NCBI GenBank assembly: GCA_964344605.1
Contig: CAYFNR010000001.1
Coordinates: forward strand, 23,439 to 87,438
Length of the DNA stretch: 64,000 bases
Direction of reading: 5' to 3'
Origin: Candidatus Woesearchaeota archaeon
GTDB taxonomy: Archaea > Nanobdellota > Nanobdellia > UBA10117 > ARS21
In this document: piece by piece, positions 20,021 to 61,444 of the stretch
How positions within the stretch are numbered: the first letter of the stretch is position 1
How the letters are laid out: each line of letters starts with the position of its first letter
Notes under the pieces: generated by a model
What the model saw: the letters and a program-made list of their open reading frames with translations, nothing else
The model's database searches: none
Told to the model about the DNA's origin: nothing
Program-made: the position numbers and the translations under genes

Positions 20021-20049
20021 AGAACAAACCAAACACCAAAACTTAATTG

Positions 20050-20078: not shown

Positions 20079-20430
20079 ATACTTTATTCTTGCTTCCAAG
20101 TCCAACGTCTTTTATTCTACTTAATACTTCTTTGGATCTTTTTGGTTTCGCATTCGGCCCCAGAGCAAAAACAACTCTTTTAACTTGATTTCCCCATGAG
20201 TAGTTGCCTTGGACATCTTCTACTGTGTGGATTCGAAACTCACCTAGTTCAACTCCTTTATTAAGGTGGTAATATATTGATCTTATACTTATATTTTGGC
20301 CAAATATTCGTACATACTTTTTATACAAGTCATAACCATAACTTTCTTTTAAGAAAAAGATAAGTTCTATGAGATTATCTCTTATTGGACTGCTTGTTGG
20401 CCTACCGCGTAAATCTTGTTTTTTAGCCAT
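20077..20430 (-). CDS. PadR-like winged-helix transcriptional regulator
   Basis: 117 aa with the PadR-type pattern LIELIFFLKESYGYDLYKKY...IRSIYYHLNKGVELGEF. Confidence 0.6.
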   Translation of the reverse strand: MAKKQDLRGRPTSSPIRDNLIELIFFLKESYGYDLYKKYVRIFGQNISIRSIYYHLNKGVELGEFRIHTVEDVQGNYSWGNQVKRVVFALGPNAKPKRSKEVLSRIKDVGLGSKNKV

Positions 20431-20527
20431 TAAATAAGAGTAAAATATAAACCTTAAAAAGAGTATTGCTAGTAATGTATGTTTGCCCGCAATATTATTT
20501 AAAAGTCCGAGACGTCAGGGGAGATAT

Positions 20528-48009: not shown

Positions 48010-48785
48010 GTTGATGAATTGTAAAATCTCTTCAAGCTATTTTCTTCAGCCCAAGCAAGCGCTTTTTCATAATCATTAACTGTATCAAATTCCAGCCAAC
48101 CTTGTGATATTTTTATTGCTTTGACTTTTACGCCATTATCTATTAGTGCTTGGAGAAAATCGGTCATGTAACCTTCTTTGAGAGAGGGAGAATTGTACCA
48201 CGGCTTATCCCAAAACCTATTTTTTGCTCGACCATATACTTTTTCTGCTTTATTTAAGATACCTTTTGAGAATTTTACCATCCCGATATATCTTGCGTCG
48301 ATATCTTTATTTATTGGGTTTGGGTCTCCTAAAGAGACTATATTATCTGCGTCCAATTCAAGACTTTCAGTATCTTCTTTATCACTTCCATGCCTGGCCA
48401 TCCAATAATCTCTCCAGTTTATATCAACAACACATCCTACTTCACCTTCAAAATCAATAACTTTTCTCAATACATCTTCTTCGAATAGAATATCTCCATA
48501 AATCATTAAGATGTCATCATCGAATTCTTTTTTAGAAAGGAAAAAATTGACTAACATATTTACACCAGACTCAGCTTGCTCTAGGTATTTTACTCCTTCT
48601 ATATCTATTTTATTGGACAGGTACCCTCTTACAACAATTATGTCTGTTATACCACATTCACGCAATAAGTCCACTTGTCTTTGGAGGATGGTTTTTCCTA
48701 AAAAAGGGAGCATGCATTTGGGTATAGTTTTAGTGTATTTTTTTAGCCTAGTTCCTTCTCCTGCAGCCAATATGACGGCTTTCAT
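48006..48785 (-). CDS. LicC-type nucleotidyltransferase (Cj1416-like candidate cytidylyltransferase)
   Basis: MKAVILAAGEGTRLKKYTKTIPKCMLPFLGKTIL N-terminal signature. Last gene of a three-gene minus-strand unit. Confidence 0.8.
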   Translation of the reverse strand: MKAVILAAGEGTRLKKYTKTIPKCMLPFLGKTILQRQVDLLRECGITDIIVVRGYLSNKIDIEGVKYLEQAESGVNMLVNFFLSKKEFDDDILMIYGDILFEEDVLRKVIDFEGEVGCVVDINWRDYWMARHGSDKEDTESLELDADNIVSLGDPNPINKDIDARYIGMVKFSKGILNKAEKVYGRAKNRFWDKPWYNSPSLKEGYMTDFLQALIDNGVKVKAIKISQGWLEFDTVNDYEKALAWAEENSLKRFYNSST

Positions 48786-49393
48786 CTCCAGAATAACCTC
48801 CTCTCTAAAAAAGCTTTAATTAACTTTTTATTAACTCCTTCATTTGGACTGGGTCTTTCTGGGTGCCATATAAATCCCGCGATGGGTTTGTTAGGATGGA
48901 ACAAGCCTTCCACAGTACTATCTTCAGCTATTGCAAAGGGTTTTAATTCTGGAGCCAAACTATTTTTTTGCATCCCATAATCATGAAATGAATTGACCTC
49001 AAATTCTTTACCAATAAGTTCCGCGACCCTTTCTTCAGTGATACTAACTTTGTGATTTTTTGATGTGTGGTTGTCTACTTCTACAAGTTTTCCTCCAAAG
49101 AATAGGTTAATGAATTCAATACCTTTACATATACCTAAAATTGGTATATTCTTTTCCAAAGCTTTTTTTACAAGTTTAGACTCTGTTTCATCTCTGGCTT
49201 GTGTTGCTTCGCCCCCACTTAGAATAATACCTTGAACTGGAAGGGCAAGGTACTCCTCAGTAAGTCCTGGTACATTAGGTACAGGGATTAGTGTTACTCC
49301 AAACGATTTGAAATATTCAACATACGGCCTTTCTAGGTAGTCTACTGTATTGTACATTTCTTTTCTCGATCGCTGAGATATTAAGATCAGCAT
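48782..49393 (-). CDS. Class-I glutamine amidotransferase-like / peptidase C26 hydrolase (Cj1417-like candidate)
   Basis: 203 aa with the nucleophile elbow LGICKGIEFIN, plus NSFHDYG and the GFIWHPE His/Glu region. Confidence 0.8.
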   Translation of the reverse strand: MLILISQRSRKEMYNTVDYLERPYVEYFKSFGVTLIPVPNVPGLTEEYLALPVQGIILSGGEATQARDETESKLVKKALEKNIPILGICKGIEFINLFFGGKLVEVDNHTSKNHKVSITEERVAELIGKEFEVNSFHDYGMQKNSLAPELKPFAIAEDSTVEGLFHPNKPIAGFIWHPERPSPNEGVNKKLIKAFLERRLFWR

Positions 49394-49394
49394 T

Positions 49395-52271
49395 TTATTT
49401 CACTATTTTAATGTTCTCCTTTTTACAATCCAATAATAACGTTTTTCCACCTTTAATCTGTTCGAATAATTCACCGCACCCGATTGCGGCCGGAAGTCCG
49501 AACTCTGCGCAGCGTATGGACATATGGGAAGCGACTCCACCATACTTGGTGATTAGACCAGCAGGCTTTTTTGTGAATATCCAATCGTAACCTGGATCTC
49601 CATTTTCTATAAGTACAATTTTATTTTCTAAGTTTGGGGTTGTATCATTGCCAGTCAAAACAAAAATATCTGCTTCTACTCTCTTTTGTGTCGTAAAATT
49701 GGGTTTTGGTTTGTAGGAGGATACGACTTCAAAATCTTTCCAGGATTGTATGATTGGTGGCAAGATTAGGGAGTTATTTATTCGGCGCTCTCCGATGCGA
49801 TGTTCTATTACTGTTTCTAATATAGATTTAATTTTTCCTATATCTTCTATTTCCGAAGCAAGCTTTATAGAATTAATATCTAACTGAGATAATAACTCTC
49901 TTGAAAATCCCAAGTCTCTCCCAGCATCCGCAATTAACTCCATTGCATCGCTAAGATTTTTAGAAAACTCAAATTTCGAAAATTCTCTAGACTCTAACGC
50001 GTCTTTCGTAAACGCGAAAAGTTCTTTTGAGTTGAATATGAGACCGTGCTCTTTTAATATATCTGAGATTTTTTTGTGAACGGCACCGTCAATTTCGAAA
50101 CTTTCCTTATTTTCTTGCTGTATTGAGTTCAACTTTCCACCTAATAAATCAGGATTTTTATCATACCTCTGTACCGTAATGTCATACGTTCCCGGACGTA
50201 GGTGCCCATATAGATTAAGGAATTTTTCTTTGCTGAGTTCGCCGTTAACTAAGGTATTAAAATCATCGTTCATTTTGGAAGCTACCGTGTATATGGAATT
50301 CATGAAGTTCTGATAAAAGGTTTTTTCAATAATACCTTCTGTCGATAAGCTGTTCAAAATTATTTTACCAATAAAAGCAAGTCTTGCTAACCTTGAGAAC
50401 TGGACAGTCCCTTGAGACACACAATTATCAAGTAAGTCCACAGCTAGACTTAGTTTTTCTTGTGTAGAGACTCCTTTCGAAACTTTATCATGAATTTTTT
50501 TCCTGAAAGCTTCCATATTTTTTGCTGTGTTTAGATCTGTTTTAATATCTTCTTTGTTCGCAAATAAGTTATTGGTCAAATCTAGTAACGCTGTCCTGAG
50601 TTCAGCTATTTCTTGGTTAGAGAAACCAGCTTCCTTCAGCTCTTTCGAACGTTTTTCAAAACCCAAATCATAACAAGTATACAGAACTTTAAACTCAACT
50701 TTATCTTGTAGCTCTTGATTATTTCTCAATTTGTTTATGTAAAAATCAACCAGTTTTCCCCTTAATTTTTTTGAAACTGGACTTGGTACAAATGAGTTAA
50801 ATGTATTCCTCACATTTATATATGGTTTATTTCCAAAAAGAACGACAAGCTTTGCAGGGTTGACATCGTAGTAGTTTTGAGATGTCCTTGCCTTGTGCCA
50901 GGCTGAATCTGTAATTATGTAATCATATAAAGAGTAATCTAGATAATTAGGATTTGATCCAATTATTTCAGCAGGGTTCCAATCGGGCATGTCGGCAAAG
51001 ATAGTGTTATCTCCTGCTAAATGTTCTTGCCTTTGCGAAATGTTCGAGAATTGTTGTTTTAGGTCTTCAATTTTTTCTTTCACTTCAACGTCTAGATTAT
51101 AAGAGGATTTTATATTTACACTCATAGGTCTGACTTGAAAGATTACGACTTCCCCATCTTTATTTACAGCAAATTCTATATCCAATTCCATGTTCGGTAA
51201 GAGTGATTCAATCTCTTTTACAGCAAGAAGAACTTTTTGTAAGTTCGCGGGGAAATTTTCCTCGTCGCAAGAACGCGAAATATATACAACTTTATTCTCA
51301 AGACCTTTTGTTACTGTGTCAGTTAAACCTGTAACATCATCGTAATTGATTACGTAATAGGGATTGTTCGTTTCCAACTGTCTTGTAAAAATAACTCCAC
51401 TACATTTTGGGTCTTTTGTCTGTCTTTGTACAAGTATTTGATTGCTTGTATGGTAGGAGTTTTTTTTAGTATATGTTTCAATTACTTTTTCAACTGCAGT
51501 TTTAATTTCTTTTTTGTCCCTGACTTTAACATCTAGTTCACTATAGAAGTAACCTGCCATGGAGTTTTCAAGAGAATCTTCATTCAATGCAGAACTCCTG
51601 ACAACAATTTTTTCTGAGCCAGAGAAAAACTCTTGTATTTGATTTAAAACATATTGTTCATTACTTTCCCATTCAGCTACAGTAAATACGAAAGAATCCT
51701 CAATCTTTCCATTTTTTAGAGTCAATTGTAGCGATTTGAGAGTGTCGGCTTTTGTAGATATTTTCGCTTTTGCCGAGCCTTCAGAAAACTCTTGTATTTT
51801 AAAAAACTTGGTGAAGGTCTCAAAATCTTTGAATAAATTTTTATAATGTTCAAACAGTTTATTAATTATTCTAAAGTCAGATAGACCAGCATAGTAAGGA
51901 TGTTGTACAAGCCTAGCCCCAATTTGTTGTAAGCTTGAAGCTGCAGGATATTTTCTCCAGTTAGACCCTAACACAACCAATAATTCAACGTCCGGGAATC
52001 TTTCCCTAATCTTCTTTAAGTTAATTATTGGGTCAAAGTCTTCTTGTATTATTACTTCATCAACACATTTTAATCCAGATACTACAGCTTTTCTTTCTTC
52101 TAAATTCGCTATTGGTTTTCTTTTGGTTGTTTGGGTAGCTTCGTCGCTAAGTACACCACAAATATGATAATCCCCTATGGAGTTCGCAAATTCCAAAGAT
52201 CTAAGATGGCCGTAGTGGAACAAATCAGCAACTACTGGACTGTAAGTGATACGTTTAATTTTCTTAGACAT
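49395..52271 (-). CDS. Fusion of a TagD-like cytidylyltransferase domain and a PEP-synthase/PPDK-like phosphohistidine kinase (Cj1418-like candidate amide kinase)
   Basis: 958 aa. N-terminal HxGH (DLFHYGHLRS). ATP-grasp PPDK_N-like blocks IVVRSSALNEDSLENSMAGYFYS and DIEFAVNKDGEVVIFQVRPM. C-terminal swivel domain GGVASHMSIRCAEFGLPAAIG, with the His codon at 49524-49526. Confidence 0.85.
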   Translation of the reverse strand: MSKKIKRITYSPVVADLFHYGHLRSLEFANSIGDYHICGVLSDEATQTTKRKPIANLEERKAVVSGLKCVDEVIIQEDFDPIINLKKIRERFPDVELLVVLGSNWRKYPAASSLQQIGARLVQHPYYAGLSDFRIINKLFEHYKNLFKDFETFTKFFKIQEFSEGSAKAKISTKADTLKSLQLTLKNGKIEDSFVFTVAEWESNEQYVLNQIQEFFSGSEKIVVRSSALNEDSLENSMAGYFYSELDVKVRDKKEIKTAVEKVIETYTKKNSYHTSNQILVQRQTKDPKCSGVIFTRQLETNNPYYVINYDDVTGLTDTVTKGLENKVVYISRSCDEENFPANLQKVLLAVKEIESLLPNMELDIEFAVNKDGEVVIFQVRPMSVNIKSSYNLDVEVKEKIEDLKQQFSNISQRQEHLAGDNTIFADMPDWNPAEIIGSNPNYLDYSLYDYIITDSAWHKARTSQNYYDVNPAKLVVLFGNKPYINVRNTFNSFVPSPVSKKLRGKLVDFYINKLRNNQELQDKVEFKVLYTCYDLGFEKRSKELKEAGFSNQEIAELRTALLDLTNNLFANKEDIKTDLNTAKNMEAFRKKIHDKVSKGVSTQEKLSLAVDLLDNCVSQGTVQFSRLARLAFIGKIILNSLSTEGIIEKTFYQNFMNSIYTVASKMNDDFNTLVNGELSKEKFLNLYGHLRPGTYDITVQRYDKNPDLLGGKLNSIQQENKESFEIDGAVHKKISDILKEHGLIFNSKELFAFTKDALESREFSKFEFSKNLSDAMELIADAGRDLGFSRELLSQLDINSIKLASEIEDIGKIKSILETVIEHRIGERRINNSLILPPIIQSWKDFEVVSSYKPKPNFTTQKRVEADIFVLTGNDTTPNLENKIVLIENGDPGYDWIFTKKPAGLITKYGGVASHMSIRCAEFGLPAAIGCGELFEQIKGGKTLLLDCKKENIKIVK

Positions 52272-52384: not shown

Positions 52385-53167
52385 ATGGCCGAGAAGAGCC
52401 TGTACCAAATTTATATGAAGGATGGCATGTATCAATCTAATTTAAGAGGCCATAGTCTGTACTTAAAATTTATTCGTTGGTTGGGATTTTTTCCATTTTA
52501 CATATTTCATAAATTAGGTCTCACAGCAAATGCAGCGTCCTTTGTAGGGTTCTTAATAGAATTGCTTGGGGTTGGACTTTTCCTAACGTCACATTATTTT
52601 TTGGCGGCGCTTATGATTTTCATAGGTGTAGTTTTTGATTTCTTTGATGGTGTTCTCGCAAGAACGCGAAATGAAGTTGGAACTCTCAATACAGCCCTAC
52701 TCTGTAGTTTACATCATTTCTTCACACCTACTTTAGTTCTAGCTGCAGGATTTATTAATTACTATTTTTTGACTAAAGATGTTGATGTCCTTTTGCTTGC
52801 TCTTGTTGTAGGGGTGGCTTCTGCCATGACTTTTCAACTTATTATAATACGTGGCAGAGCCCTGTTTAAGTACTATCCTGGCTTTGCAAACAAACAAGAA
52901 GAAGTTCTTGTCAATAGGAGACATAGTATAATATTCAGAACAGAACAGTTGCTGGAGAGAATTATTGATCACGGATATGCTATGATATTAGTATATGCTG
53001 TTAATCCTTTGGTATTCATTGGTCTGTTTTCAATTTTGATACCAGCAAGGCTTTTGAGCGTTTTCACTTATTTTTACTTTACAAACAGGAAACTCGAGAA
53101 GCAACTTGTAAAGTATAAGAAAGAACATACTAAAGGAGAAGGAGGTAGAAAGCTATATAATATTTAG
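52385..53167 (+). CDS. CDP-alcohol phosphatidyltransferase-like membrane protein, divergent motif
   Basis: 260 aa, polytopic. DFFDGVLAR is present, but the downstream GxxxDxxxD is replaced (TRNEVGTLNTALLCSLHH). Confidence 0.65.
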   Translation: MAEKSLYQIYMKDGMYQSNLRGHSLYLKFIRWLGFFPFYIFHKLGLTANAASFVGFLIELLGVGLFLTSHYFLAALMIFIGVVFDFFDGVLARTRNEVGTLNTALLCSLHHFFTPTLVLAAGFINYYFLTKDVDVLLLALVVGVASAMTFQLIIIRGRALFKYYPGFANKQEEVLVNRRHSIIFRTEQLLERIIDHGYAMILVYAVNPLVFIGLFSILIPARLLSVFTYFYFTNRKLEKQLVKYKKEHTKGEGGRKLYNI

Positions 53168-53184
53168 CGTTAAGGTGATATAAA

Positions 53185-54051
53185 ATGGCAGAAGAAAAGA
53201 AAGGAAATCCAACAACTTTTTTAGATTGGGGAAAAACAACTGGAAACCACAGAGTTACATATGCCTATCATGAAGGTCAAGAGGCCTATGATCTGTATAT
53301 GGGTGCAAGATATGTTTGCGATATGATTGCATATCGCAATGGAGAAATAGATAAAGTGTTTCATCCAGAAGACTTAAGAGATAATACCAGAAAATACTCG
53401 GGTCTTGTTGCATGCGATAATGGCTCAGACGAACTTACTTTTTATGAAGTTGGTTCTTCAGTAATGGGTGTTATAGATGCTTTGGAGTATTTGAATATTG
53501 AGTATAACCAACTAGATATCAAAGATACTAAATTCCTTGGAGTTGATAACTCTAAGTGGATGAATGCTGTTGCTGAATATACTCATGAGCAGTACAATTT
53601 AAAATTATGGGAAGATGTAAAAGATGCTGAAGGTGTAGAGTGTGATTTGTTCTTTGCAAAAGGTGTTTCTTTGATGTATGCTTTCCAAGATGAAGACGCC
53701 ATGTGTGACGTGCTAAAAAATAGCAAACTCGCGATATTTGATTACACTTTTTCTTTGGATGGGAAAATACAAGATCATACTGGAACAGGATTAGGAGTTA
53801 CTTATTTGAATTTAGACAAATGTAAAGGAATTCTCGAGAGAGAAAAGGGTAAAATATTGGTGATGAAGCCCTATCAAATCAAAACTTACCATCAAGGAGA
53901 CCCGACTAAAGCCAGTTTTGATTGTATATATGGGGAGAGGGAAATAATTGATAAGTATCTTGCTGATTTAGAAGATAAAACTGGTGAGAATCTATACAAC
54001 TATGGAAATCCAAAGTTCATAAAAGGTGGTAGAGTTTACAACATAGAGTAG
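53185..54051 (+). CDS. Hypothetical soluble protein, possible Rossmann-fold methyltransferase
   Basis: 288 aa, preceded by AAGGTGAT. A weak motif-I-like FYEVGSSVMG is followed by FLGVDNS and CDLFFAKGVSLMYAF. The assignment is tentative. Confidence 0.45.
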   Translation: MAEEKKGNPTTFLDWGKTTGNHRVTYAYHEGQEAYDLYMGARYVCDMIAYRNGEIDKVFHPEDLRDNTRKYSGLVACDNGSDELTFYEVGSSVMGVIDALEYLNIEYNQLDIKDTKFLGVDNSKWMNAVAEYTHEQYNLKLWEDVKDAEGVECDLFFAKGVSLMYAFQDEDAMCDVLKNSKLAIFDYTFSLDGKIQDHTGTGLGVTYLNLDKCKGILEREKGKILVMKPYQIKTYHQGDPTKASFDCIYGEREIIDKYLADLEDKTGENLYNYGNPKFIKGGRVYNIE

Positions 54052-54052
54052 T

Positions 54053-54820
54053 CTACCTCTTCTTTTCTATTTTTTTCAATATATTATATGTAGACTTGAA
54101 AAAAACAACAGATCTAAGTGGTACAAATAATCCGTAAAAGATTAAGTAGGAGCTTGTTATATTATACTCAAAGAAATAAAGCAGCAGGACAACAGTAGTT
54201 ATTTCTCTAAGCCGATATGTTGGAAAGGATGCCAATTTTAGAAGTAGTAAATCTTTTCTATTTGCTAACCCTATTTGAGAAGGAATTGCTTTATGCAGCT
54301 TATATGCGCGTCCTTTAACAGCTTCCGGATTTCTTAAAATTACCAACTGCTTTAATAAGAGTAGAAATCCTGTCGCCAATTGAAAAAAACCAGCAGCAAA
54401 ACCTGCATATAATAGCCAGATATCTCCGCTTAACTTGTAAAAACCAAACCCGAGACCAACAAATATGAAAGAGGGGTTGATATGGTGATATGTTCTTCCT
54501 AAGAATCCACTCTGTAATTTCGTAACACCTTTCCTACACCTCGCAACGAGTCCGTCCATATAATCAAAAAACTCTCCAAAATAAAATAGTAGCAGCCCAA
54601 GTGCAAAGTATATAGGCTTTCCAAAAGCAAAGAATAAGGAAGCCAAGAGTATAATTAATATAGAAAGTAGAGTTACCATGTTGGCCGTTATTGGTGTTTT
54701 TAGAATAGCCCATACACAATATACAGCTATTCTCCTAAAAAATTTATACACGATGCTAACTTTAAAATGTCGATCTCTATTATATGCCTGCTTTTTGATT
54801 TCTCTCACACTAGTTTTCAT
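54053..54820 (-). CDS. CDP-alcohol phosphatidyltransferase-like membrane protein, divergent motif
   Basis: 255 aa, polytopic. ITANMVTLLS and DYMDGLVAR are present, and the second half-motif is replaced (CRKGVTKLQSGFLGRTYHH). Confidence 0.65.
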   Translation of the reverse strand: MKTSVREIKKQAYNRDRHFKVSIVYKFFRRIAVYCVWAILKTPITANMVTLLSILIILLASLFFAFGKPIYFALGLLLFYFGEFFDYMDGLVARCRKGVTKLQSGFLGRTYHHINPSFIFVGLGFGFYKLSGDIWLLYAGFAAGFFQLATGFLLLLKQLVILRNPEAVKGRAYKLHKAIPSQIGLANRKDLLLLKLASFPTYRLREITTVVLLLYFFEYNITSSYLIFYGLFVPLRSVVFFKSTYNILKKIEKKR

Positions 54821-56070
54821 TTGAATAACACGTTGAATTTGCTTTTGTCATATAACCCTTCTGAAACTTTTCCGTCGAAGTCTTTTTTATTGAGTAGCAA
54901 ATGGTGCTCGTTGTGGGAAGTAGAAACTAAATCTCCTACAAAAACCGGGCCCTTACAAACCCTTTGCATTTCTTTCACAACTTTGGACGCGTGCTCTTTA
55001 TCTGGGAAATACTGAAAGATGGAATATGCAAACACTTTATCGAAGCTGTTATCTATAAAAGGCAAAATACTCGCTTCTCCAACCACAACATTATTTTTTA
55101 GTATTTTGTTGTGTTTTTTAACCATAGATTTCGCATAATCCATGCCAATATAGTTACACTTTAAATATTGTGCAATCATGCCTGCTCCACATCCAACTTC
55201 TAAAACTTTATCCTTTTCTTTGATATTGAGGATATCTGTTAGTTCGTTTGCAATTTTTCCGATATTAGCACCAGTTAAATCAAAACCATCGAGCCTGACA
55301 AGATCTGAAGTGTCTTCATTTCCTTTACGCTCCCATATCTCTTTCCAATTGAGCTTGAAGGCTTTTTCCAGTTTAGGATAAGTTATTTCCCTGGCTCTTT
55401 GTAGATCCTCCTGTGTATCTATCTTTGTCCAAATAAGGTCTTCAACACATAGAGAAGATATGGGAGTTCCTTTTTTAGCTAATTTTAAGATACCTTCTTC
55501 AAGCCACAACTTCTTATTATCTCTTATTTTTGCCAGTTCATTAACGAAGTCCTTTGTTAATTTAGATATGCCAATAAATTCACCACTGGATTTGTCCCTG
55601 TTCAAATCTTTTCCTAGATTAGTAATATAATTTGACTCGTCTGTGTACACTAAAATTTCATCTCCAGACCCGCTAATTTTTGAAGTTAATATGATATTTT
55701 CCTCTTTGGCAGATAATATTTTTTTAATGGCACTTGGAGTATATAATAAATCGGATTCAATAACTAGCACAGCATCATCTATCAAATCTTTAGCACAAAG
55801 TAAAGAAAATAAACTATCAGTTTCAAGGTATTCGCTGTTATCAACATAAGTTATCTTTATACTATTATATATATTACCCAATCTTCTTTTAATTTTATCT
55901 CCCAAATATCCTGTAACCAAAATTACTTCATTTATTCCATTATGTAATAGTGACTTAAACGAATAATCTAATAAAGATTCACCTTTAATATCTACCAAAC
56001 ATTTTGGCATGTTGTTTGTGAGAGGGCTAAGTCTCCTTCCTTGCCCCGCGGCAAGAATCACAGTTTTCAT
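54817..56070 (-). CDS. Fusion of a LicC-type nucleotidyltransferase and a class I SAM-dependent methyltransferase
   Basis: N-terminal MKTVILAAGQGRRLSPLTNNMPKCLV. C-terminal motif I VLEVGCGAGMIAQYL and motif II-like FDKVFAYSIFQYF. Confidence 0.85.
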   Translation of the reverse strand: MKTVILAAGQGRRLSPLTNNMPKCLVDIKGESLLDYSFKSLLHNGINEVILVTGYLGDKIKRRLGNIYNSIKITYVDNSEYLETDSLFSLLCAKDLIDDAVLVIESDLLYTPSAIKKILSAKEENIILTSKISGSGDEILVYTDESNYITNLGKDLNRDKSSGEFIGISKLTKDFVNELAKIRDNKKLWLEEGILKLAKKGTPISSLCVEDLIWTKIDTQEDLQRAREITYPKLEKAFKLNWKEIWERKGNEDTSDLVRLDGFDLTGANIGKIANELTDILNIKEKDKVLEVGCGAGMIAQYLKCNYIGMDYAKSMVKKHNKILKNNVVVGEASILPFIDNSFDKVFAYSIFQYFPDKEHASKVVKEMQRVCKGPVFVGDLVSTSHNEHHLLLNKKDFDGKVSEGLYDKSKFNVLFK

Positions 56071-56072
56071 TC

Positions 56073-57137
56073 CTAGCTAAGGATATCCTCTTTTTTAATA
56101 TCTTTTAAGGCTCCGAGCAGTACTTCATTATCTTTTTTATTTCTTACTCCTAAACGTATAAATGAATCGGTGTCAAACTCTTTCTGGTTCAGACCTTCTT
56201 TTACCATGAGCCTATGATTATCATATAGTGTCTCAGCTAGCTTTCTAGCACTACCTTCAACTTTACAAAATACTGCGTTTGCGCTGGTTGGATAAGGAGT
56301 TAGGTAAGGTATATCATTTAGATTTTCAAGAAACCATTTAGTATCTTCAACACTTTTAACAATAGATTCTTCATGTTCCTCTTTATAATCTGGAAGCATT
56401 TCGATTATATATTCAGTAACTGAGTTTATGTTCCAAATAGGTAAGTGAGCTCTTACTTTCTTTTTTACATTTTCATTGCTCGTAAGCATGTAACCCAACC
56501 TAAGACCTGCAATGCCAATAGATTTCGTACAGCTCGCAACAACAATTAAATTATCATATTTCGATATAAGTTGTTCTGCAGAGTGCTCCGGACCAGCGAA
56601 AGTCATAAACGCTTCGTCAACAATTAAGTTCACTCCAGAGTTTAATATATATTCAATATCCTTTATAGGTGTAAGATTGCCAACAGGATTGTTTGGATTT
56701 ATTATAACGGCGTATTCGCTGTTTGATTCGTTTACTTCTTCTATTAATTTGTTTGGGTCTAAAATGAAATCATTTTCTTCGTCCAAAAGATATTTATGGA
56801 TTTTATCCTCTGGCAATCTCACAAATTCATTGAAAGTAGGCAGTGCGACTGTGACTTTAGTTATCACATGGTCATTAAGCATACGAATGAGTTCAGAGGA
56901 ACCATTTCCTATAACAAGGTTGTCTGCATTGAAGTAATCTTCATCTTTCCATTTAGCAAGTAGTTCTGCTATTACACGCTGACTTGAGGGGTAATAATTC
57001 CCTATTTTTGGCAGTTGGTCCGCCAGCTCCTTATAAAACTCTTTTGTTGGAAAATAGTGATTGAATAAATAGTGAAAGTCCAAGTGGTCATCTCGCCAAT
57101 AACCTCCGTGCCTGCTTCTTATCTCGTCAATTCCCAA
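56073..57137 (-). CDS. Class I/II PLP enzyme of the HisC/CobD type (candidate phospho-amino-acid decarboxylase or aminotransferase)
   Basis: N-terminal HGG, then NPNNPVG, LIVDEAF and the PLP-Lys context SCTKSIGIAGLRLGY. TTG start 2 nt after the upstream stop; there is no ATG until about residue 84. Confidence 0.75.
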   Translation of the reverse strand: MGIDEIRSRHGGYWRDDHLDFHYLFNHYFPTKEFYKELADQLPKIGNYYPSSQRVIAELLAKWKDEDYFNADNLVIGNGSSELIRMLNDHVITKVTVALPTFNEFVRLPEDKIHKYLLDEENDFILDPNKLIEEVNESNSEYAVIINPNNPVGNLTPIKDIEYILNSGVNLIVDEAFMTFAGPEHSAEQLISKYDNLIVVASCTKSIGIAGLRLGYMLTSNENVKKKVRAHLPIWNINSVTEYIIEMLPDYKEEHEESIVKSVEDTKWFLENLNDIPYLTPYPTSANAVFCKVEGSARKLAETLYDNHRLMVKEGLNQKEFDTDSFIRLGVRNKKDNEVLLGALKDIKKEDILS

Positions 57138-57139
57138 GA

Positions 57140-58978
57140 TTAAACACCTTCAAATATTTCCTCTGCCATTTTAAGATCATTTACATCATCAATCTCAAAC
57201 CACTTACCTTTCGTCTCAGGTGCTGAGATTGTACATCCCTTAGTTACGATATTCTTAAAAATTGTTTCAATTGGTTCCGTTCCGCCAGTTTCTTCAATGT
57301 GAGTCTTTAGCTCAGGTTTGAGCCAAGTATTAATGAACTCTTTCGAAAAGCTATGTATATTTACAGTTTTGTATTTGTTCTCAATTTTGAATTCCTCTGG
57401 CCTGTCTTTTTTATGTATCCACGCCTTGACTATCCCATTATCAACTTCCACAAAAGACCCATCTAACTTTGAGTTCCACTTTTCTACCAAGGTTTTGTTC
57501 TTGTGTTTATCATCTATGAACGATTTAAGTAACTTGCTTTCAAAGAAGATGTCACCTTCTAAAATTAACAGATCTTCATCCAAATTTTTTATTCCAATCC
57601 ATAAAGAATAGCTGTTGTTTGTTTTATCATAAATATTACTTTTGATATATTTTATTTTAATCCTTTTAAAGGAATCTCCAATTTTTTCTTGGATTTTGTT
57701 CGCCAAGTATCCTACAACAAGTGTAACTTCGTTGATTCCAAATTCATTTAATCTACTAAGTGTGTTTTCAAGTATTGATTTACCATTTATTTTAACAAGA
57801 CATTTTGGTATATCGTCAGTGACAGGCTTTAAGCGAGTTCCCATGCCAGCAAGTAAAATAATAGCTTTTTTTGGTTTAACCGTTTTTGAAGTAGATGGAC
57901 TAAAACCAACTCTACATAATACTTCTTTAAAATTTTTAAGGAAGCTGTCAATATCTTCTTTGAACAAATTCCCAAGAGTTGCAACTCTAAATATACCTTT
58001 GTCTAAAGTACTTTGTCCGGAGTATATTGTAAAACCTCTCTTTTTCAGTTCGTCGTGTATTACCCAGTAATCCATATCTTTTGGTAAGTGTATTGAAGTG
58101 AGTATATTTGATTGCAAGTTATCTGGGAGTATAAATTTAAACCCCATTTCACGTAGACCTTCGCGCATATACTCCGCGTTTTCTTTCTGCCGTTTAATTC
58201 TGTTCTCTACTCCTTCTTTAATTAGCTCATCAAGTGCTTTGTCCAAGGCAAAAAATAATTGTACAGCTGGAGTAAAAGGTAGCTGCTTACTTTTTTCTGC
58301 ACTTTCCCATTGATTATACAGATTAAAATAGAAACTACGAGATTTACCTTTCAGTTTTTCTATATCACTTTTTTTCGCTATAACAAAAGAGATTCCAGGA
58401 AAACTTTGTAGACATTTATTGGCACTAACAGTACAGAAATTAATATTATCTTTTACTACATCTATTTTATATCCCCCAAGACTGCTGATAGTATCTGCAA
58501 CGGTAATTACACCATATTTTTTGGCCAACTGTCCTAAGTCATGTAGAGGTAGAATCATTCCAGTTGTGGTCTCGTGGTGCACAAAAACCATATGTGTAAT
58601 ATCTGGGTTGGATTCTAACTTTGAGTCTATTTGTCCCAAATCAATTGGTTTTAATGGGTCAAATTTGAGCTCAATTAGAGGTATATTGTAGCGTTCTGTT
58701 ATTTCACCAAGTCTTTTTGCATACTTACCATTATTTATCAGTAAAACTTTTCCGTGAATAGAAGATATAATTGCTTCATTACATCCTGTACCTGATGATA
58801 CGAAAGCAACAACTGAATGAGTCTCTTCACCATTCACAACTTTCAAAAGTTTCTTTCTAACTTTTGTTAAAACCTCAAAGAATTCTGACTCTCTGTGACA
58901 TATATCGTGGGTCTTGATAGCATTTCGGACTCCATTAGAAACATTTGTTGGGCCCGGATTAAAGAGCATATTTTTCAT
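57140..58978 (-). CDS. Fusion of a 2-aminoethylphosphonate:pyruvate aminotransferase-like domain (class V) and a LicC/PntC-type nucleotidyltransferase
   Basis: PhnW-like blocks LFNPGPTNVS, VHHETTTGMILPL, SANKCLQSFPGISFVIA, FRVATLG. The C-terminal half has AIILLAGMGTRLKPVTDDIPKCLVKINGKSIL. The track start at 59020 is TTG; the ATG at 58978 or 58969 is preferred. Confidence 0.85.
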   Translation of the reverse strand: MKNMLFNPGPTNVSNGVRNAIKTHDICHRESEFFEVLTKVRKKLLKVVNGEETHSVVAFVSSGTGCNEAIISSIHGKVLLINNGKYAKRLGEITERYNIPLIELKFDPLKPIDLGQIDSKLESNPDITHMVFVHHETTTGMILPLHDLGQLAKKYGVITVADTISSLGGYKIDVVKDNINFCTVSANKCLQSFPGISFVIAKKSDIEKLKGKSRSFYFNLYNQWESAEKSKQLPFTPAVQLFFALDKALDELIKEGVENRIKRQKENAEYMREGLREMGFKFILPDNLQSNILTSIHLPKDMDYWVIHDELKKRGFTIYSGQSTLDKGIFRVATLGNLFKEDIDSFLKNFKEVLCRVGFSPSTSKTVKPKKAIILLAGMGTRLKPVTDDIPKCLVKINGKSILENTLSRLNEFGINEVTLVVGYLANKIQEKIGDSFKRIKIKYIKSNIYDKTNNSYSLWIGIKNLDEDLLILEGDIFFESKLLKSFIDDKHKNKTLVEKWNSKLDGSFVEVDNGIVKAWIHKKDRPEEFKIENKYKTVNIHSFSKEFINTWLKPELKTHIEETGGTEPIETIFKNIVTKGCTISAPETKGKWFEIDDVNDLKMAEEIFEGV

Positions 58979-59041
58979 TGGCCTAATTTTAGAGTAGTCG
59001 CTTAAAAGGATTTCGCGCAATTATTCTATATTACTCTTCTA

Positions 59042-60691
59042 CTATTCTTTTTGGGACAGCATTTCACAAGCATCTTTATAATTTTGGAAAGTATTCATTT
59101 CTATCCAACCTTCACTAACTTCTTGCGCGTATATGGTATGTCCTTGATTAATCATTTCTTGTAAGGTGTGATCCATATCCAAATTTTTAACTTCACCCTT
59201 TTCCACCAATTTTCTTACAGTATCCTTAAATGAGTTGGTTCCTTTCTTCGAAAGCAAGGTTACTCCACAAAACTCAAAGTTTGCCTCAGTCCTAGGTATG
59301 TCTTGTCCTATTTGAGAAATTATGTTATACTTTCGAGGATTTAGAATCCTAGAACCTTTAATTGGAGAGTATTTAGCAACTACAAGATCTAGTTTTTTGT
59401 CTTTGAATTTGGACTTAGTATAAGATTTATCAATTGATATAGTTATGTCTTTATCACTTTTTAATAACTTTTCAATCAGTTCAGGCTCAAATAAAATGTC
59501 TCCAAAAAGTACCAAAACACGACCTTCCAGTTCTTCTTTGGCAAGCATTATTGAATGTATAGATCCTGAATTTTCATAATCTTCATTAATAATGACGGAA
59601 ACATCTTCAACATCAGAAGCATTTAATCTTTCATGATTATATCCTGCTACTAAGATTATCTTCGTTATTCCTAAGCTTTTCAGACCCTCTATATTCCGTT
59701 TTAGTAAAGATTTACCATTTATGTCAAGTAATGCCAAAGGAGTTTCTGGCAAAACATGTGCTAGGGATTTTGGTGGACGCCCCGCGATAGGTATTATTGC
59801 AGTAATAGACTCTTTGTCTAATCCTAGAAACCGTTCTTCATTAGCCTTCATTTCATAAGTTCCTTGTAGCTCAAACACCTCTTTTAACGTAGCTAGTTTT
59901 GGGCTGACTGTTTTTACTCCACCAGATATTTGTATCTCATCCAGAGTTTCCTTAACGGATTTTATTATAGAACGCATTACGTGATTTGCATAAATTACCA
60001 TTTTTATTTTAGGGTATCTTGATATCATTTTTTCATCCATGCCTGAGTATGTTGTTGGCACAATTACTAGTGGCACGTTTTTATCCCATTTCTTTACGAA
60101 CTCTATTATCTCTGTAGGGTCAGATTTTTTAGAATGTATCATTATACCATCAACACCAGCTTCAACGTACGCCTTCGCGCGTTTCATTGCTTCTTCTTGT
60201 CCCCAGCCTGCAATCAAAGCTTCTACTCTTGCTATGACCATAAACTCTTTTGTTTCCTGTGCGTTTTTTGCCGCCATTATCTTTCCAACAAATTCAGAAA
60301 CAGAGGCCAGTTCTTGTCTGCCGCCAGCAAGTAAACTATTTTGCTTTGGAAATTTTTTATCTTCCATGATGACCCCGGCGATTCCAGCAGCTTCAAACTT
60401 TTTAATCATCCTTATCACATTCATGGAATTACCATATCCTTGATCAACGTCCACGACCACAGGTATTGATACAGCATCGTTCATACTTATAGCAGCATTC
60501 AGATAGTCAGTCATAGTTAAGATATTTGCATCTGGGACTGCATGAGATGCCGATACTTCCAAAGAGGATGCCCAAACACCTTCGAATCCACCCCCCTCTA
60601 CTAATTTAGCAGTGGCTCCGTTGTGAGCACCAACAATCCGAATTAACTTTTCACTTGCAAATAATTCTCTTAGTGCAGCTGCTTTATTCAT
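59042..60691 (-). CDS. pepM: Phosphoenolpyruvate mutase fused to a C-terminal (divergent) nucleotidyltransferase domain
   Basis: IVGAHNGATAKLVE, VDVDQGYGN, and the PepM-discriminating EDKX5NS motif as EDKKFPKQNS (codons 60335-60364). The C-terminal ~250 aa is LicC-like with a degenerate G-loop (PIAGRPPKSL). Confidence 0.9.
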   Translation of the reverse strand: MNKAAALRELFASEKLIRIVGAHNGATAKLVEGGGFEGVWASSLEVSASHAVPDANILTMTDYLNAAISMNDAVSIPVVVDVDQGYGNSMNVIRMIKKFEAAGIAGVIMEDKKFPKQNSLLAGGRQELASVSEFVGKIMAAKNAQETKEFMVIARVEALIAGWGQEEAMKRAKAYVEAGVDGIMIHSKKSDPTEIIEFVKKWDKNVPLVIVPTTYSGMDEKMISRYPKIKMVIYANHVMRSIIKSVKETLDEIQISGGVKTVSPKLATLKEVFELQGTYEMKANEERFLGLDKESITAIIPIAGRPPKSLAHVLPETPLALLDINGKSLLKRNIEGLKSLGITKIILVAGYNHERLNASDVEDVSVIINEDYENSGSIHSIMLAKEELEGRVLVLFGDILFEPELIEKLLKSDKDITISIDKSYTKSKFKDKKLDLVVAKYSPIKGSRILNPRKYNIISQIGQDIPRTEANFEFCGVTLLSKKGTNSFKDTVRKLVEKGEVKNLDMDHTLQEMINQGHTIYAQEVSEGWIEMNTFQNYKDACEMLSQKE

Positions 60692-60710
60692 GCGCCGAAA
60701 TCTTTGATAA

Positions 60711-60725
60711 ATGTATATAAGTATT
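60711..60725 (-). promoter_or_regulatory. TATA-box candidate for the pepM operon
   Basis: The minus strand reads aatacttatatacat, with TATA ending about 22 nt upstream of the pepM ATG (leaderless-type spacing). Confidence 0.35.
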
Positions 60726-60739
60726 ATGAAAACGAAGTC

Positions 60740-61444
60740 TCATTTATTTTTCATAGACTTCTTATCATATTTTAATACAGTTCTTAATTGCATTGCTAGA
60801 ATTACTATCCAAAATAAATTACCAAATGTTGCAAAGAAAATTAGAATCCATTCTGCTAAATTAAGTGCTACCAATATTGGCAGGAACACAAATAGTGTAG
60901 ATGTCCCATATACAAACCGCAGTTTGTTCTTTTTATTTATCAATTTTATTTTTCTCTTTGACAGTAAAGGATCAAAATCATATTTGAAAATATAAATTAT
61001 AAGAAATTGTAGTGGGAAGCATATTGCTGCTAGTGTTCCCCAAAGTAGCCAAGTATATTCTCTTAGTCCTAAAGCTACAGACAGGAAAATAAAAGGCAAT
61101 GATAAGTATCCAATCATACTGTCCAGCCACTTACCTTTCAGGCTTGATAATTTCATTACTCTAGCCATTTTTCCATCGAGGTGATCCAAAATGTAAGTCA
61201 AGAAAATTAAAATAGCACCGAGTAGTCTGTAGGTATAAGGGTTGTTGCTGAAGCCACTAAAACCTAAAAATGCCAGACCACCAATCATTACAAAAATTGA
61301 AAGATAAGTTATTTGATTTGGAGTTATACTTGTATATCTGAGCATAAATTTGGTTAAAGGTATGGTTACTTTCCTAAATAAATATCCCAAAATATCAGTT
61401 TCTTTGTTTTTAACCATTAGCTTCAAGTCATATTTTTTCTTCAT
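60740..61444 (-). CDS. CDP-alcohol phosphatidyltransferase family membrane protein
   Basis: 234 aa, polytopic. The motif DHLDGKMARVMKLSSLKGKWLDSMIG matches DxxDGxxARx8GxxxD but has Gly in place of the final Asp. Confidence 0.7.
   Translation of the reverse strand: MKKKYDLKLMVKNKETDILGYLFRKVTIPLTKFMLRYTSITPNQITYLSIFVMIGGLAFLGFSGFSNNPYTYRLLGAILIFLTYILDHLDGKMARVMKLSSLKGKWLDSMIGYLSLPFIFLSVALGLREYTWLLWGTLAAICFPLQFLIIYIFKYDFDPLLSKRKIKLINKKNKLRFVYGTSTLFVFLPILVALNLAEWILIFFATFGNLFWIVILAMQLRTVLKYDKKSMKNK

What the first reader, a model, noticed from the sequence alone, without database searches (positions are those of the whole stretch)
52385..61444. Three CDP-alcohol-phosphotransferase-like membrane proteins with a broken catalytic motif; two share a His-His pair
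Seen: all three proteins (52385-53167, 54053-54820, 60740-61444) keep the first half of the family signature, DxxDGxxAR (DFFDGVLAR, DYMDGLVAR, DHLDGKMAR). The second half, GxxxDxxxD, is not intact. The 60740 protein reads G-KWL-D-SMI-G, so the last Asp is Gly. The other two lack the Gly and both Asp residues and instead carry a conserved HH pair 17-19 residues after the AR (…CSLHHF, …RTYHHI). Established: in characterised CDP-alcohol phosphotransferases the Asp residues bind the metals and the last Asp is the proposed catalytic base. Inference: these paralogues may use non-canonical donors (CMP-phosphonate or CDP-amidate) or non-canonical chemistry. That would fit their interleaving with the activating enzymes. 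They would be the obvious candidates for the transfer step, since no homologue of the large Campylobacter MeOPN transferases (Cj1421/Cj1422) is evident here.
Basis: partly seen in the sequence, partly recalled or inferred. Interest (0 to 1): 0.65.

Follow-up and report, generated by a model that had tools for sequence, protein, structure and literature searches.

The report
CDP-alcohol phosphotransferases lacking the catalytic aspartate
Three membrane enzymes in an archaeal surface-sugar gene cluster really do lack the aspartate thought essential for their family; two carry a histidine there instead, a change shared by a large group of unstudied relatives in archaea and bacteria.

Summary
All three ORFs score above Pfam's cut-off for PF01066. 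They keep DxxDGxxAR and the TM1 cytosine-binding motif, and their models match AF2299 and PIP synthase.

No alignment restores the canonical second half-motif. P3 (60740-61444) reads G104xxxD108xxxG112, so only D4 is lost. P1 and P2 have no acidic residue there: G2/D3/D4 read T103/C107/H111 in P1 and S104/G108/H112 in P2.

The "HH pair" is really one homologous His at the D4 position. The second His lies on opposite sides in the two proteins.

D4-to-His is not private to this locus. At least 114 of the 149 best representative relatives carry it. Most of these keep G2 and D3. Only 15 are canonical. They are relatives of AF2299 and usually sit beside nucleotidyltransferase and glycan-assembly genes. 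P3's small clade has G, S, N or A at D4.

I read P1 and P2 as active head-group transferases that use His as general base. P3's activity is uncertain. The motif change is not specific to phosphonate or phosphoramidate donors. I found no publication or curated family describing this variant. Nothing here tests activity.

The parts
52385..53167 (+). P1, a His-type CDP-alcohol-phosphotransferase homologue (260 aa) that also lacks G2 and D3
   Evidence: PF01066 at 23.9 bits. AF2 model with pLDDT 71; Foldseek best matches AF2299 and PIP synthase, prob 1.0. Relatives P0003 and P0004 (54% and 43% identity) keep LCSxHH.
52637..52663 (+). P1 first half-motif, D85-FF-D88-G89-VL-A92-R93
   Evidence: Read directly from the sequence.
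52703..52717 (+). P1 C107-S-L-H110-H111. C107 is at the D3 position and H111 (or H110) at the D4 position.
   Evidence: phmmer against 6h53. hhalign A1 vs A5 and A1 vs A6. H111 is invariant in A1.
53185..54051 (+). Unannotated 288-aa gene directly downstream of P1. It is co-conserved with phosphonate and phosphoramidate modules elsewhere.
   Evidence: No Pfam, NCBIfam or PDB hit. 50% identity to L086:7504-8289 in the same module. Fifteen metagenome homologues lie beside Ppm, NTase and CobD-like genes.
54053..54820 (-). P2, a His-type CDP-alcohol-phosphotransferase homologue (255 aa) lacking G2 and D3. Its start overlaps the stop of the upstream NTase-methyltransferase gene by 4 nt.
   Evidence: PF01066 at 30.7 bits. 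24% identity to P1 over the full length. Found only itself in the word-indexed search. Relatives came from the full HMMER search, e.g. P0013 and P0019.
54485..54565 (-). P2 motif region: D86-YM-D89-G90-LV-A93-R94 ... S104(G2) ... G108(D3) ... H112(D4)-H113
54817..56070 (-). Nucleotidyltransferase fused to a SAM methyltransferase
   Evidence: PF00483, PF12804 and PF08241.
56073..57137 (-). PLP enzyme of the CobD / HisC family (threonine-phosphate decarboxylase-like)
   Evidence: TIGR01140 at 141 bits, below its cut-off; PF00155. 53-70% identity to genes beside Ppm in L094, L098, L099, L101, L106 and L108.
57140..59020 (-). 2-aminoethylphosphonate aminotransferase fused to a nucleotidyltransferase
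   Evidence: TIGR03301 at 395.6 bits, above its cut-off of 360.8; PF00483.
59042..60691 (-). PEP mutase fused to a MobA-like nucleotidyltransferase
   Evidence: PF13714 at 185 bits and PF12804. Contains EDKKFPKQNS, which fits the Ppm-specific EDKxxxxxNS motif (sequence; motif from PMC6697681).
60740..61444 (-). P3, an AF2299-like CDP-alcohol-phosphotransferase homologue (234 aa) with D1, D2, G2 and D3 intact and Gly at D4
   Evidence: PF01066 at 41.9 bits over profile positions 3-143. AF2299 E=4.8e-10. Foldseek match to 4o6m with E=1e-6 and TM 0.67. The clade has G/G/G/G/S/N/A/G at D4.
61109..61186 (-). P3 motif: D87-HL-D90-G91-KM-A94-R95-x8-G104-KWL-D108-SMI-G112
48006..52271 (-). Phosphoramidate-activating module, transcribed divergently from P1. 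It comprises a Cj1418-like glutamine kinase with an N-terminal cytidylyltransferase-like domain (49395-52271), a Cj1417-like amidohydrolase (48782-49393) and a Cj1416-like NTase (48006-48785).
   Evidence: NF004508 at 846 bits, above its cut-off of 501. NF045546 at 99.5 bits, below its cut-off. PF12804. The same module with a His-type CDP-AP occurs in L086.

Best explanation
P1, P2 and P3 are divergent members of the AF2299/DIPPS-like branch of the CDP-alcohol phosphotransferases. This branch takes soluble CDP- or CMP-linked head groups. In this archaeal locus they most likely move the head groups made by the neighbouring nucleotidyltransferases onto a membrane-bound glycan or lipid acceptor at the cytoplasmic face, before export by the Wzx-type flippase. 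Candidate head groups are CMP-aminoethylphosphonate or a methylated derivative, a CDP-amino-alcohol, and possibly CDP-amidate.

Shown: the nucleotide-binding half of the site is kept. This comprises the TM1 (P/A)NxxT/S motif and D1xxD2GxxAR on TM2.

Inferred for P1 and P2: a His on the first turns of TM3, conserved across the family at the position of the fourth Asp, takes over as general base and/or second-metal ligand. D85/D88 in P1 (D86/D89 in P2) hold the metal that binds the diphosphate. In P1, C107 may replace D3 as a ligand.

Inferred for P3: metal binding through D1-D3 is intact but no base is conserved. P3 either relies on its substrate or on a metal-bound hydroxide, or acts on an acceptor that needs no deprotonation, or is inactive.

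No step of catalysis has been tested.
For: Family and fold:
- PF01066 scores above threshold for all three.
- AF2299 and PIP synthase are the best sequence and fold matches.

Nucleotide site kept:
- D1, D2 and G are present in 157 of 157 aligned sequences, A in 150 and R in 152.
- The TM1 motif reads ANAAS in P1, ANMVT in P2 and PNQIT in P3 (sequence). Its role in cytosine binding is described in PMC4634129.

His at the D4 position:
- hhalign of 20 typical relatives against 12 of the 15 canonical-motif sequences among the 149 best representatives aligns His with D4 without a gap, at probability 100%.
- The same His-to-D4 alignment is seen against AF2299 at E=1.8e-26.
- An alignment-free count of the 149 best representatives gives 88 with D/E..H, 26 with a non-acidic residue then H, and 15 canonical.
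- All 31 independent best-scoring representatives (P0003, P0004, P0010-P0036, with P0029 and P0034-P0035 included; scores 87.5-398 bits) have the His.

Selection on these genes: relatives at 41-54% identity keep length and motif.

Genomic coupling to nucleotidyltransferases: an NTase gene lies immediately adjacent, often overlapping, in the window (P2), L002, L005, L008, L009, L013, L092 and L093.

Glycan context: Wzx, Wzy, GT2, GT4, PMT_2 and STT3 genes are found in these loci.

No catalytic partner nearby: there is no canonical CDP-AP in the 64-kb window for a non-catalytic paralogue to pair with.

Phosphonate link: P3-like genes abut Ppm genes in the window and L002, and a His-type gene abuts Ppm-NTase in L093.
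Against: - Even a conservative D4-to-Asn change nearly abolishes activity in M. tuberculosis PIP synthase (PMC4634129). Loss of D4 could therefore mean loss of activity.
- The D4 position is not uniform in this clade. Besides His it holds G, Y, S, T or N in some representatives. It holds Ala in 56 of 80 genome loci, mostly Streptomyces. This is hard to square with an indispensable base.
- P1 and P2 also lack D3, a metal ligand.
- P3's clade has no conserved residue at D4.
- The AF2 models are of moderate to low confidence (pLDDT 71 and 62, built from 4-5 sequences). No coordinates were available, so I could not measure whether the His faces D1/D2.
- Donor, acceptor and activity are all inferred from neighbouring genes.
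Confidence: 0.5

Rival explanations
1. The three proteins are non-catalytic paralogues (pseudoenzymes). They keep the nucleotide-binding half and the fold, and serve as partners, scaffolds or substrate holders for another transferase rather than making the phosphodiester themselves.
For: D4-to-Asn nearly abolishes PIP synthase activity (PMC4634129). In 50 of 56 genome loci the small D4-to-Ala paralogue lies about 1.8 kb downstream of a roughly 600-aa paralogue with the full canonical motif. CDP-APs are homodimers, so a heterodimer is conceivable (dimer from PMC6506517). P3's clade has a non-conserved residue at D4. Phosphonate modules elsewhere work without any CDP-AP in the sequence fetched.
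Against: The window holds no canonical CDP-AP to partner with. A dead enzyme would not be expected to keep a His at exactly the base position in at least 114 of 149 representative clusters while the rest of the protein is only about 20-30% identical. In many loci the His-type is the sole CDP-AP and is translationally coupled to an NTase.
Confidence: 0.2
2. The proteins are active, and the altered half-motif reflects a different acceptor or metal rather than a different base. One option is a phosphate-monoester acceptor such as polyprenyl or dolichyl phosphate, which needs no deprotonation and would make them initiating transferases forming lipid-PP-X. Another is a softer metal (Zn, Mn or Fe) held by Cys and His in P1.
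For: The D4 position is variable (H, A, G, Y, S, N) across a clade that otherwise keeps D1-D3, as expected if no strong base is needed. His-type genes sit between Wzx and Wzy genes in L011 and beside Wzx in L086 and L091. Cys recurs at the D3 position, in 16 of 157 aligned sequences (15 independent of the window's own P1), and in P1 it lies 3-4 residues from the His pair, on one helix face.
Against: I know of no precedent for a phosphate acceptor in this family. Gly alternates with Cys at the D3 position, and P2 has Gly, so the Cys is not essential. I did not check whether these loci lack a conventional initiating phosphoglycosyltransferase.
Confidence: 0.15
3. One reading: the broken motif is an adaptation to non-canonical donors (CMP-phosphonate or CDP-amidate), and these paralogues are the dedicated phosphonyl and phosphoramidyl transferases.
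For: P3-like genes abut Ppm genes in the window and L002. The branch lacking D3 occurs in Ppm loci in the window, L002, L091 and L093. A His-type gene lies within the Cj1416-18 module in L086, as P1 does in the window. A Borg locus described in bioRxiv 10.1101/2024.11.05.622173 combines the same modules with a CDP-AP.
Against: The His signature is common in loci with glycerol-3-phosphate dehydrogenase plus NTase, kinases, or Wzx/Wzy genes, with no Ppm or Cj1418 homologue in the stretch fetched. The Borg CDP-AP is reported to have the exactly conserved active site. CMP-AEP is drawn as a substrate of ordinary EPT1 (PMC9765203). The attack on P with CMP leaving is the same chemistry for a phosphonate. 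Within the loci, P1- and P2-like genes usually follow NTases that sit next to HAD, Fe-ADH, FGGY-kinase or aldolase genes rather than Ppm.
Confidence: 0.15

Closest known systems
AF2299 (Archaeoglobus fulgidus; PDB 4o6m, 4o6n, 4q7c), a CDP-alcohol phosphotransferase of unknown physiological substrate
   Same: It is the best sequence and fold match for P3 (E=4.8e-10; Foldseek E=1e-6, TM 0.67) and for the His-type profile (E=1.8e-26). It shares the six-TM core, the DGEIAR-type first half-motif, the x8 spacing and the TM1 PNQIT motif.
   Different: AF2299 has the full G2xxxD3xxxD4 and an N-terminal cytoplasmic domain. P1-P3 have neither D4 nor that domain. P1 and P2 also lack G2 and D3.
IPCT-DIPPS (A. 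fulgidus, PDB 4mnd), a CDP-inositol:inositol-1-phosphate transferase
   Same: It belongs to the same branch, which uses a soluble CDP-alcohol donor made by an attached or adjacent cytidylyltransferase. The arrangement matches the NTase-then-CDP-AP gene pairs seen here.
   Different: It has the canonical four-Asp motif and both its substrates are soluble. There are no inositol-phosphate genes in the window.
Phosphatidylinositol-phosphate synthases (M. tuberculosis PgsA1, PDB 6h53/6h59/6h5a; R. salmoninarum PIPS, PDB 5d92)
   Same: Same fold and first half-motif. They provide the register used for P1 and P2.
   Different: They use CDP-diacylglycerol as donor. D1-D4 bind two Mg ions and D4 is the proposed base, and D93N is nearly inactive (PMC6506517, PMC4634129). 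P1 and P2 have Cys or Gly at D3 and His at D4.
Campylobacter jejuni MeOPN pathway (Cj1415-Cj1418 with the transferases Cj1421/Cj1422)
   Same: The window has homologues of Cj1418 (846 bits, above cut-off), Cj1417 and Cj1416 next to P1.
   Different: I did not identify a Cj1421/Cj1422-type transferase, and I did not search for one. A CDP-AP-type membrane protein sits in the module instead, as it does in L086.
Phosphonyl tailoring (Pnt) clusters with Ppm-cytidylyltransferase fusions (Rice et al. 2019, PMC6697681)
   Same: The window has a Ppm-PF12804 fusion, an AEP transaminase-NTase fusion and a cell-surface glycan context.
   Different: That paper names LicD-like phosphotransferases and glycosyltransferases among the neighbouring cell-wall glycan genes, and does not mention CDP-alcohol phosphotransferases. 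Here the candidates are CDP-AP homologues. No Ppd was found in the operon.

Membership tests
CDP-alcohol phosphotransferase (Pfam PF01066) | Score above Pfam's gathering threshold (22 bits) | tested here: met
   23.9, 30.7 and 41.9 bits for P1, P2 and P3. P1 and P2 match only profile positions 3-58.
CDP-alcohol phosphotransferase (Pfam PF01066) | Six-TM fold like the solved members | tested here: met
   For P1, Foldseek gives AF2299 and PIPS at prob 1.0, TM about 0.5 and E about 0.03 (model pLDDT 71). For P3, AF2299 at E=1e-6 and TM 0.67 (pLDDT 62). P2 was not modelled.
CDP-alcohol phosphotransferase (Pfam PF01066) | First half of the signature, D1xxD2GxxAR on TM2 | tested here: met
   DFFDGVLAR, DYMDGLVAR and DHLDGKMAR.
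CDP-alcohol phosphotransferase (Pfam PF01066) | Second half of the signature, G2xxxD3xxxD4 on TM3. The eight signature residues are described as absolutely conserved in PMC4634129. | tested here: not met
   P3 reads G104, D108, G112. P1 reads T103, C107, H111. P2 reads S104, G108, H112.
CDP-alcohol phosphotransferase (Pfam PF01066) | TM1 P(D/N)xx(T/S) motif that binds the cytosine | tested here: met
   P3 has PNQIT. P1 has ANAAS and P2 has ANMVT, with Pro replaced by Ala (sequence). N49 is nearly invariant in A4.
CDP-alcohol phosphotransferase (Pfam PF01066) | [quoted passage not shown] | not testable with these tools
   This needs a biochemical assay.
His-type AF2299-like subfamily (defined here: DxxDGxxAR-x8/9-[GSA]xxx[DECG..]xxxH) | His at the D4 position in register with the canonical relatives | tested here: met
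   P1 and P2 meet it. P3 does not, having Gly there.
His-type AF2299-like subfamily (defined here) | G2 and D3 retained, as in most members (88 of 149) | tested here: not met
   P1 and P2 belong to the 26-of-149 branch with a non-acidic residue at D3.
MeOPN transferases Cj1421/Cj1422 | Sequence homology to Cj1421/Cj1422 | not tested
   No reference sequence was at hand. None of the window ORFs scanned gave a hit pointing to that family.

The most novel reading that the evidence does not exclude
A large unrecognised clade of AF2299-like CDP-alcohol phosphotransferases works without the fourth Asp that is described as absolutely conserved. It uses His, or in some lineages no side chain at all, at that position. 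Its members are the missing membrane transferases that put phosphonate, phosphoramidate and phospho-alcohol head groups onto archaeal and bacterial surface glycans. Some may act on polyprenyl phosphate as initiating enzymes. On this reading P1, P2 and P3 would be the first candidate phosphonyl and phosphoramidyl transferases of archaea.
Probability: 0.3. Interest if true: 0.7.

Novelty: new variant of a known kind. Interest (0 to 1): 0.55.

Why it matters
The CDP-alcohol phosphotransferase mechanism is taught around four invariant aspartates, with the last one as the catalytic base. If the His-type enzymes are active, that rule needs revising. A whole clade now annotated only as "CDP-alcohol phosphatidyltransferase family" would become a defined target.

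It would also name a transferase class for the last, still uncertain step of phosphonate head-group attachment. That step is relevant to marine phosphonate cycling and to surface antigens. It would extend MeOPN-type phosphoramidate decoration to archaea.

If the proteins prove inactive, they are a clear case of conserved pseudoenzymes paired with biosynthetic operons.

Tried and rejected
- Word-indexed homologue searches found almost nothing. P2 found only itself, P1 found two relatives and P3 found four. The full HMMER search was needed.
- A 70-sequence alignment was too diverse for the locus finder.
- The invariance of His in alignments A4 and A5 is circular, because I picked sequences that have it. 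I therefore rely on the unselected tables.
- I considered sequencing error or pseudogenes and rejected this. The substitutions are kept in relatives at 41-54% identity, and the ORFs are intact.
- I considered a Borg or virus origin. The window carries Cdc6/Orc1, both PolD subunits, LonB, Cdc48 and SerRS, with genes on both strands, so it looks chromosomal.
- I looked for a compensating conserved acidic residue elsewhere in P1 and P2 and found none. The invariant columns are D85, D88, G89, R93 and H111.
- I looked for a canonical partner CDP-AP in the window and found none.
- I looked for Ppd among the ORFs scanned and found none. Not every ORF was scanned.
- NCBIfam has no specific model for the His-type; all hits are far below their cut-offs.
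- Literature searches on D4-to-His, DUF5941, CDP-AP in glycan clusters and CMP-AEP transferases gave nothing relevant.
- There are no tRNA or Rfam hits in the window.
- Residue-level geometry could not be checked, because the structure tools return no coordinates.

Full report
**What is at the coordinates**

I call them P1 (52385-53167, +, 260 aa), P2 (54053-54820, -, 255 aa) and P3 (60740-61444, -, 234 aa).

- All three score above Pfam's gathering threshold for PF01066, the CDP-alcohol phosphatidyltransferase family. The scores are 23.9, 30.7 and 41.9 bits.
- P1 and P2 match only the first third of the profile (positions 3-58). P3 matches positions 3-143.
- NCBIfam gives only sub-threshold hits, to archaetidylinositol-phosphate synthase, PIP synthase and IPCT-DIPPS.
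- These are the only D..DG..AR motifs in any frame of the window.

The window comes from an archaeal chromosome. It carries both PolD subunits, Cdc6/Orc1, LonB, Cdc48 and seryl-tRNA synthetase. The source is an ENA metagenome assembly.

**Register of the motif**

The family signature is D1xxD2G1xxAR...G2xxxD3xxxD4, described as eight absolutely conserved residues. The first three Asp bind metal and D4 is the proposed catalytic base. D93N in M. tuberculosis PIP synthase is almost inactive (PMC4634129; PMC6506517).

For P3 there is no ambiguity. The sequence reads D87-HL-D90-G91-KM-A94-R95, then eight residues, then G104-KWL-D108-SMI-G112. phmmer aligns it to AF2299 without a gap, and G112 falls opposite AF2299's D4.

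For P1 and P2 the first turns of TM3 contain no Asp or Glu at all.

- phmmer against M. tuberculosis PgsA1 puts Cys (P1) or Gly (P2) on D3 and a His on D4.
- Profile-profile alignment of the P1/P2 group against 20 typical relatives places a one-residue insertion in the TM2-TM3 loop. This gives T103/C107/H111 for P1.
- Those typical relatives align with 12 of the 15 canonical-motif sequences among the best representatives, and with AF2299, without a gap. His falls opposite D4.
- A direct alignment of the P1/P2 group to the canonical sequences shifts by one residue and puts H110 on D4. Either way a His sits there in P1.
- Three things favour the first register. The hydrophobic pair before D3 (FL or YL) is conserved. 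A small residue sits at G2. A loop is the likelier place for an insertion.
- The AF2 model of P1 (pLDDT 71) has a helix at 71-94, a loop at 95-100 and a helix at 101-130. This puts D85/D88 and C107/H111 at matching depths on antiparallel helices. That is inferred from secondary structure only.

It does not.

**Correction to the "HH pair"**

P1 and P2 are 24% identical over their full length. In their alignment P1's H111 pairs with P2's H112. P1's H110 pairs with P2's Y111, and P2's H113 pairs with P1's F112. The shared feature is one His, not a pair.

**How widespread it is**

I ran a full HMMER search of 1.84 billion representative proteins with a profile built from P1, its two relatives and P2. 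It gave 3251 hits at E<=1e-3 and 273 at E<=1e-10.

An alignment-free count of the 149 representative hits, with the window's own proteins and the P3 clade excluded, gave these classes:

| Class (D3 position .. D4 position) | Count |
|---|---|
| D/E .. H | 88 |
| non-acidic .. H | 26 |
| canonical D .. D | 15 |
| other | 20 |

Several of the "other" class are His-type with unusual spacing. The rest have G, Y, S, T or N at the D4 position.

D4-to-His is therefore the usual state of a large clade, and most members keep G2 and D3. P1 and P2 belong to a sub-branch that has also lost D3, which is Cys or Gly in most of that branch.

The profile was built from His-bearing sequences. That biases the ranking slightly, but it cannot create over a hundred distinct 50%-identity clusters.

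P3's own small clade comprises P0006-P0009 and paralogues in L002 and L005. It keeps D1, D2, G1, A, R, G2 and D3 without exception, and shows G, G, G, G, S, N, A, G at D4.

No NCBIfam model is specific for any of these. I found no paper describing the variant.

**Context elsewhere**

P1's relatives lie in archaeal glycan loci. These contain STT3, GT2/GT4, PMT_2, further CDP-AP paralogues, NTase plus HAD genes and a PEP mutase.

Members of the branch lacking D3 show the following arrangements:

- P0011 and P0022 sit in tandem beside Wzx, cytidylyltransferases, a B12 radical-SAM gene and a cytidylyltransferase-Ppm fusion (L091).
- P0013 is overlapped by an upstream NTase, with two more CDP-APs and a phosphonate ABC transporter nearby (L092).
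- P0019 follows aldolase, FGGY kinase, Fe-ADH and NTase genes. In the same locus a typical His-type gene abuts a Ppm-NTase gene, and a canonical paralogue is also present (L093).

Typical His-type genes show other arrangements:

- Some follow glycerol-3-phosphate dehydrogenase plus NTase (L008, L013).
- One is fused to an APH-type kinase next to an NTase-DHQS gene (L009).
- One sits between Wzx and Wzy (L011).

The consistent partners are a nucleotidyltransferase and glycan-assembly genes. Phosphonate or phosphoramidate genes are not consistent partners.

A scan of species-representative genomes found at least 534 relatives. The best 80 are mostly Streptomyces, Actinomadura and Kitasatospora. 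In these a paralogue of about 259 aa has Ala (56 loci) or His (23 loci) at D4. It usually lies about 1.8 kb downstream of a protein of about 600 aa that combines a canonical CDP-AP with DUF5941. That partner is present in 50 of 56 Ala-type loci and 12 of 23 His-type loci. This pairing is the best argument for a non-catalytic role in some lineages.

**The window's own cluster**

On the minus strand, in order of transcription, lie:

- P3;
- Ppm-NTase, which carries the Ppm-specific EDKxxxxxNS motif described in PMC6697681;
- AEP aminotransferase-NTase (TIGR03301, above its cut-off);
- a CobD/HisC-family PLP enzyme;
- NTase-methyltransferase;
- P2, whose start overlaps the preceding stop.

P1 and an unannotated 288-aa gene are transcribed divergently from homologues of Cj1418 (846 bits, above its cut-off, with an extra N-terminal cytidylyltransferase-like domain), Cj1417 and Cj1416.

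A Methanosarcinales MAG (L086) has the same phosphoramidate module at 40-58% identity. It also has the 288-aa gene at 50% identity, a formyltransferase-like gene, a Wzx gene and a His-type CDP-AP. A similar combination is described in Methanoperedens Borgs. There the CDP-AP is reported to have the exactly conserved active site (bioRxiv 10.1101/2024.11.05.622173).

**Interpretation**

Three observations argue that P1 and P2 are working enzymes with His as the general base or second-metal ligand:

- the nucleotide site is retained;
- the His is conserved at exactly the base position;
- the genes are tightly coupled to NTase genes.

P3 can bind metal and nucleotide, but no conserved residue stands in for the base. 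I give the active-transferase reading 0.5.

Each of the main rivals has some support:

- pseudoenzyme partners (0.2);
- a different acceptor or metal (0.15);

The donor-driven idea is weakened by the many His-type loci without phosphonate or phosphoramidate genes. It is also weakened because attack on a CMP-phosphonate is the same reaction as attack on a CDP-alcohol. CMP-AEP is drawn as an EPT1 substrate in PMC9765203.

**A competing candidate for the late step**

The 288-aa gene (53185-54051) has 15 metagenome homologues at 48-63% identity.

- They lie beside Ppm, NTase and the same CobD-like gene (L094, L098, L099, L101, L105, L106, L108).
- Two lie beside Ppm, Ppd, Fe-ADH and a sulfatase-family gene (L096, L097).
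- A 26% homologue lies beside an APS-kinase-like gene and homologues of Cj1416, Cj1417 and Cj1418 (L109).
- None of these loci contains a CDP-AP motif in the sequence fetched.

The CDP-APs are therefore not obligatory partners of these head-group pathways. The 288-aa protein is a shared late-step candidate, possibly an O-methyltransferase judging by eye from its EVGSS and GVDNS stretches.

**Verdict**

It is best described as membership in an unrecognised His-type variant of the AF2299-like CDP-alcohol phosphotransferases, plus a second small clade (P3) with no conserved residue at D4. This is a new variant of a known kind. It is of moderate interest and can be tested directly.

Noticed in passing
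window 53185-54051 (+); L086:7504-8289; L094-L109: An unannotated 288-aa protein with no Pfam, NCBIfam or PDB hit is co-conserved with both phosphonate modules (Ppm/NTase/CobD-like, or Ppm/Ppd/Fe-ADH/sulfatase) and phosphoramidate modules (Cj1415-18 homologues). These occur in 16 metagenome loci that contain no CDP-AP motif. By eye it has class-I methyltransferase-like stretches (YEVGSSVMG, FLGVDNS). It is a candidate shared late-step enzyme.
   Followed up: partly
window 56073-57137 (-), with 57140-60691: I found no phosphonopyruvate decarboxylase (TPP enzyme) in the operon or among the window ORFs scanned. A CobD/HisC-family PLP enzyme sits there instead. It is 53-70% identical to genes lying between Ppm and an NTase in six metagenome loci. 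This may indicate a Ppd-independent route, for example phosphonopyruvate to phosphonoalanine to AEP.
   Followed up: partly
window 48006-52271 (-); L086:8290-11776; L109:881-5026: Homologues of the Campylobacter MeOPN activation enzymes (Cj1418, Cj1417, Cj1416) occur in an archaeal chromosome. The Cj1418-like kinase carries an extra N-terminal cytidylyltransferase-like domain. The same module is present in a Methanosarcinales MAG, and a low-GC (25%) contig also has an APS-kinase-like (Cj1415-like) gene.
   Followed up: partly
L014-L090 (e.g. L027:2432-4204 and 5989-6768): Streptomyces, Actinomadura, Kitasatospora, Bifidobacterium and Nanopelagicales share a conserved gene pair. One member is a canonical CDP-AP of about 600 aa fused to DUF5941. 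The other, about 1.8 kb downstream, is a paralogue of about 259 aa with Ala (56 loci) or His (23 loci) at the D4 position. This may be a heterodimer or a catalytic/non-catalytic pair. No paper in the searched library mentions DUF5941.
   Followed up: partly
window 37506-38990 (-); L005:8687-11571; L091:5920-7326; L092:4594-5979: B12-binding radical-SAM genes recur in these loci. In L091 one lies directly upstream of a cytidylyltransferase-Ppm fusion. From my own knowledge, this is reminiscent of Fom3-type methylation of cytidylylated phosphonates.
   Followed up: no
window 46660-48009 (+); L086:6813-7529: A 449-aa protein with a C-terminal formyltransferase-like domain lies beside the phosphoramidate module. 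That C-terminal part is 39% identical to a gene in the Methanosarcinales module. Its role is unknown.
   Followed up: no
window 17118-23989: The PolD small subunit, Cdc6/Orc1 and the PolD large subunit lie next to one another. This suggests the window is close to a chromosomal replication origin.
   Followed up: no
L001:1-871 (just beyond the window's 3' end): The source contig continues with a 643-aa protein combining NTP_transferase, AAA_33 (P-loop kinase) and HAD domains. This is another activating enzyme, and a possible counterpart of the Cj1415 kinase.
   Followed up: no
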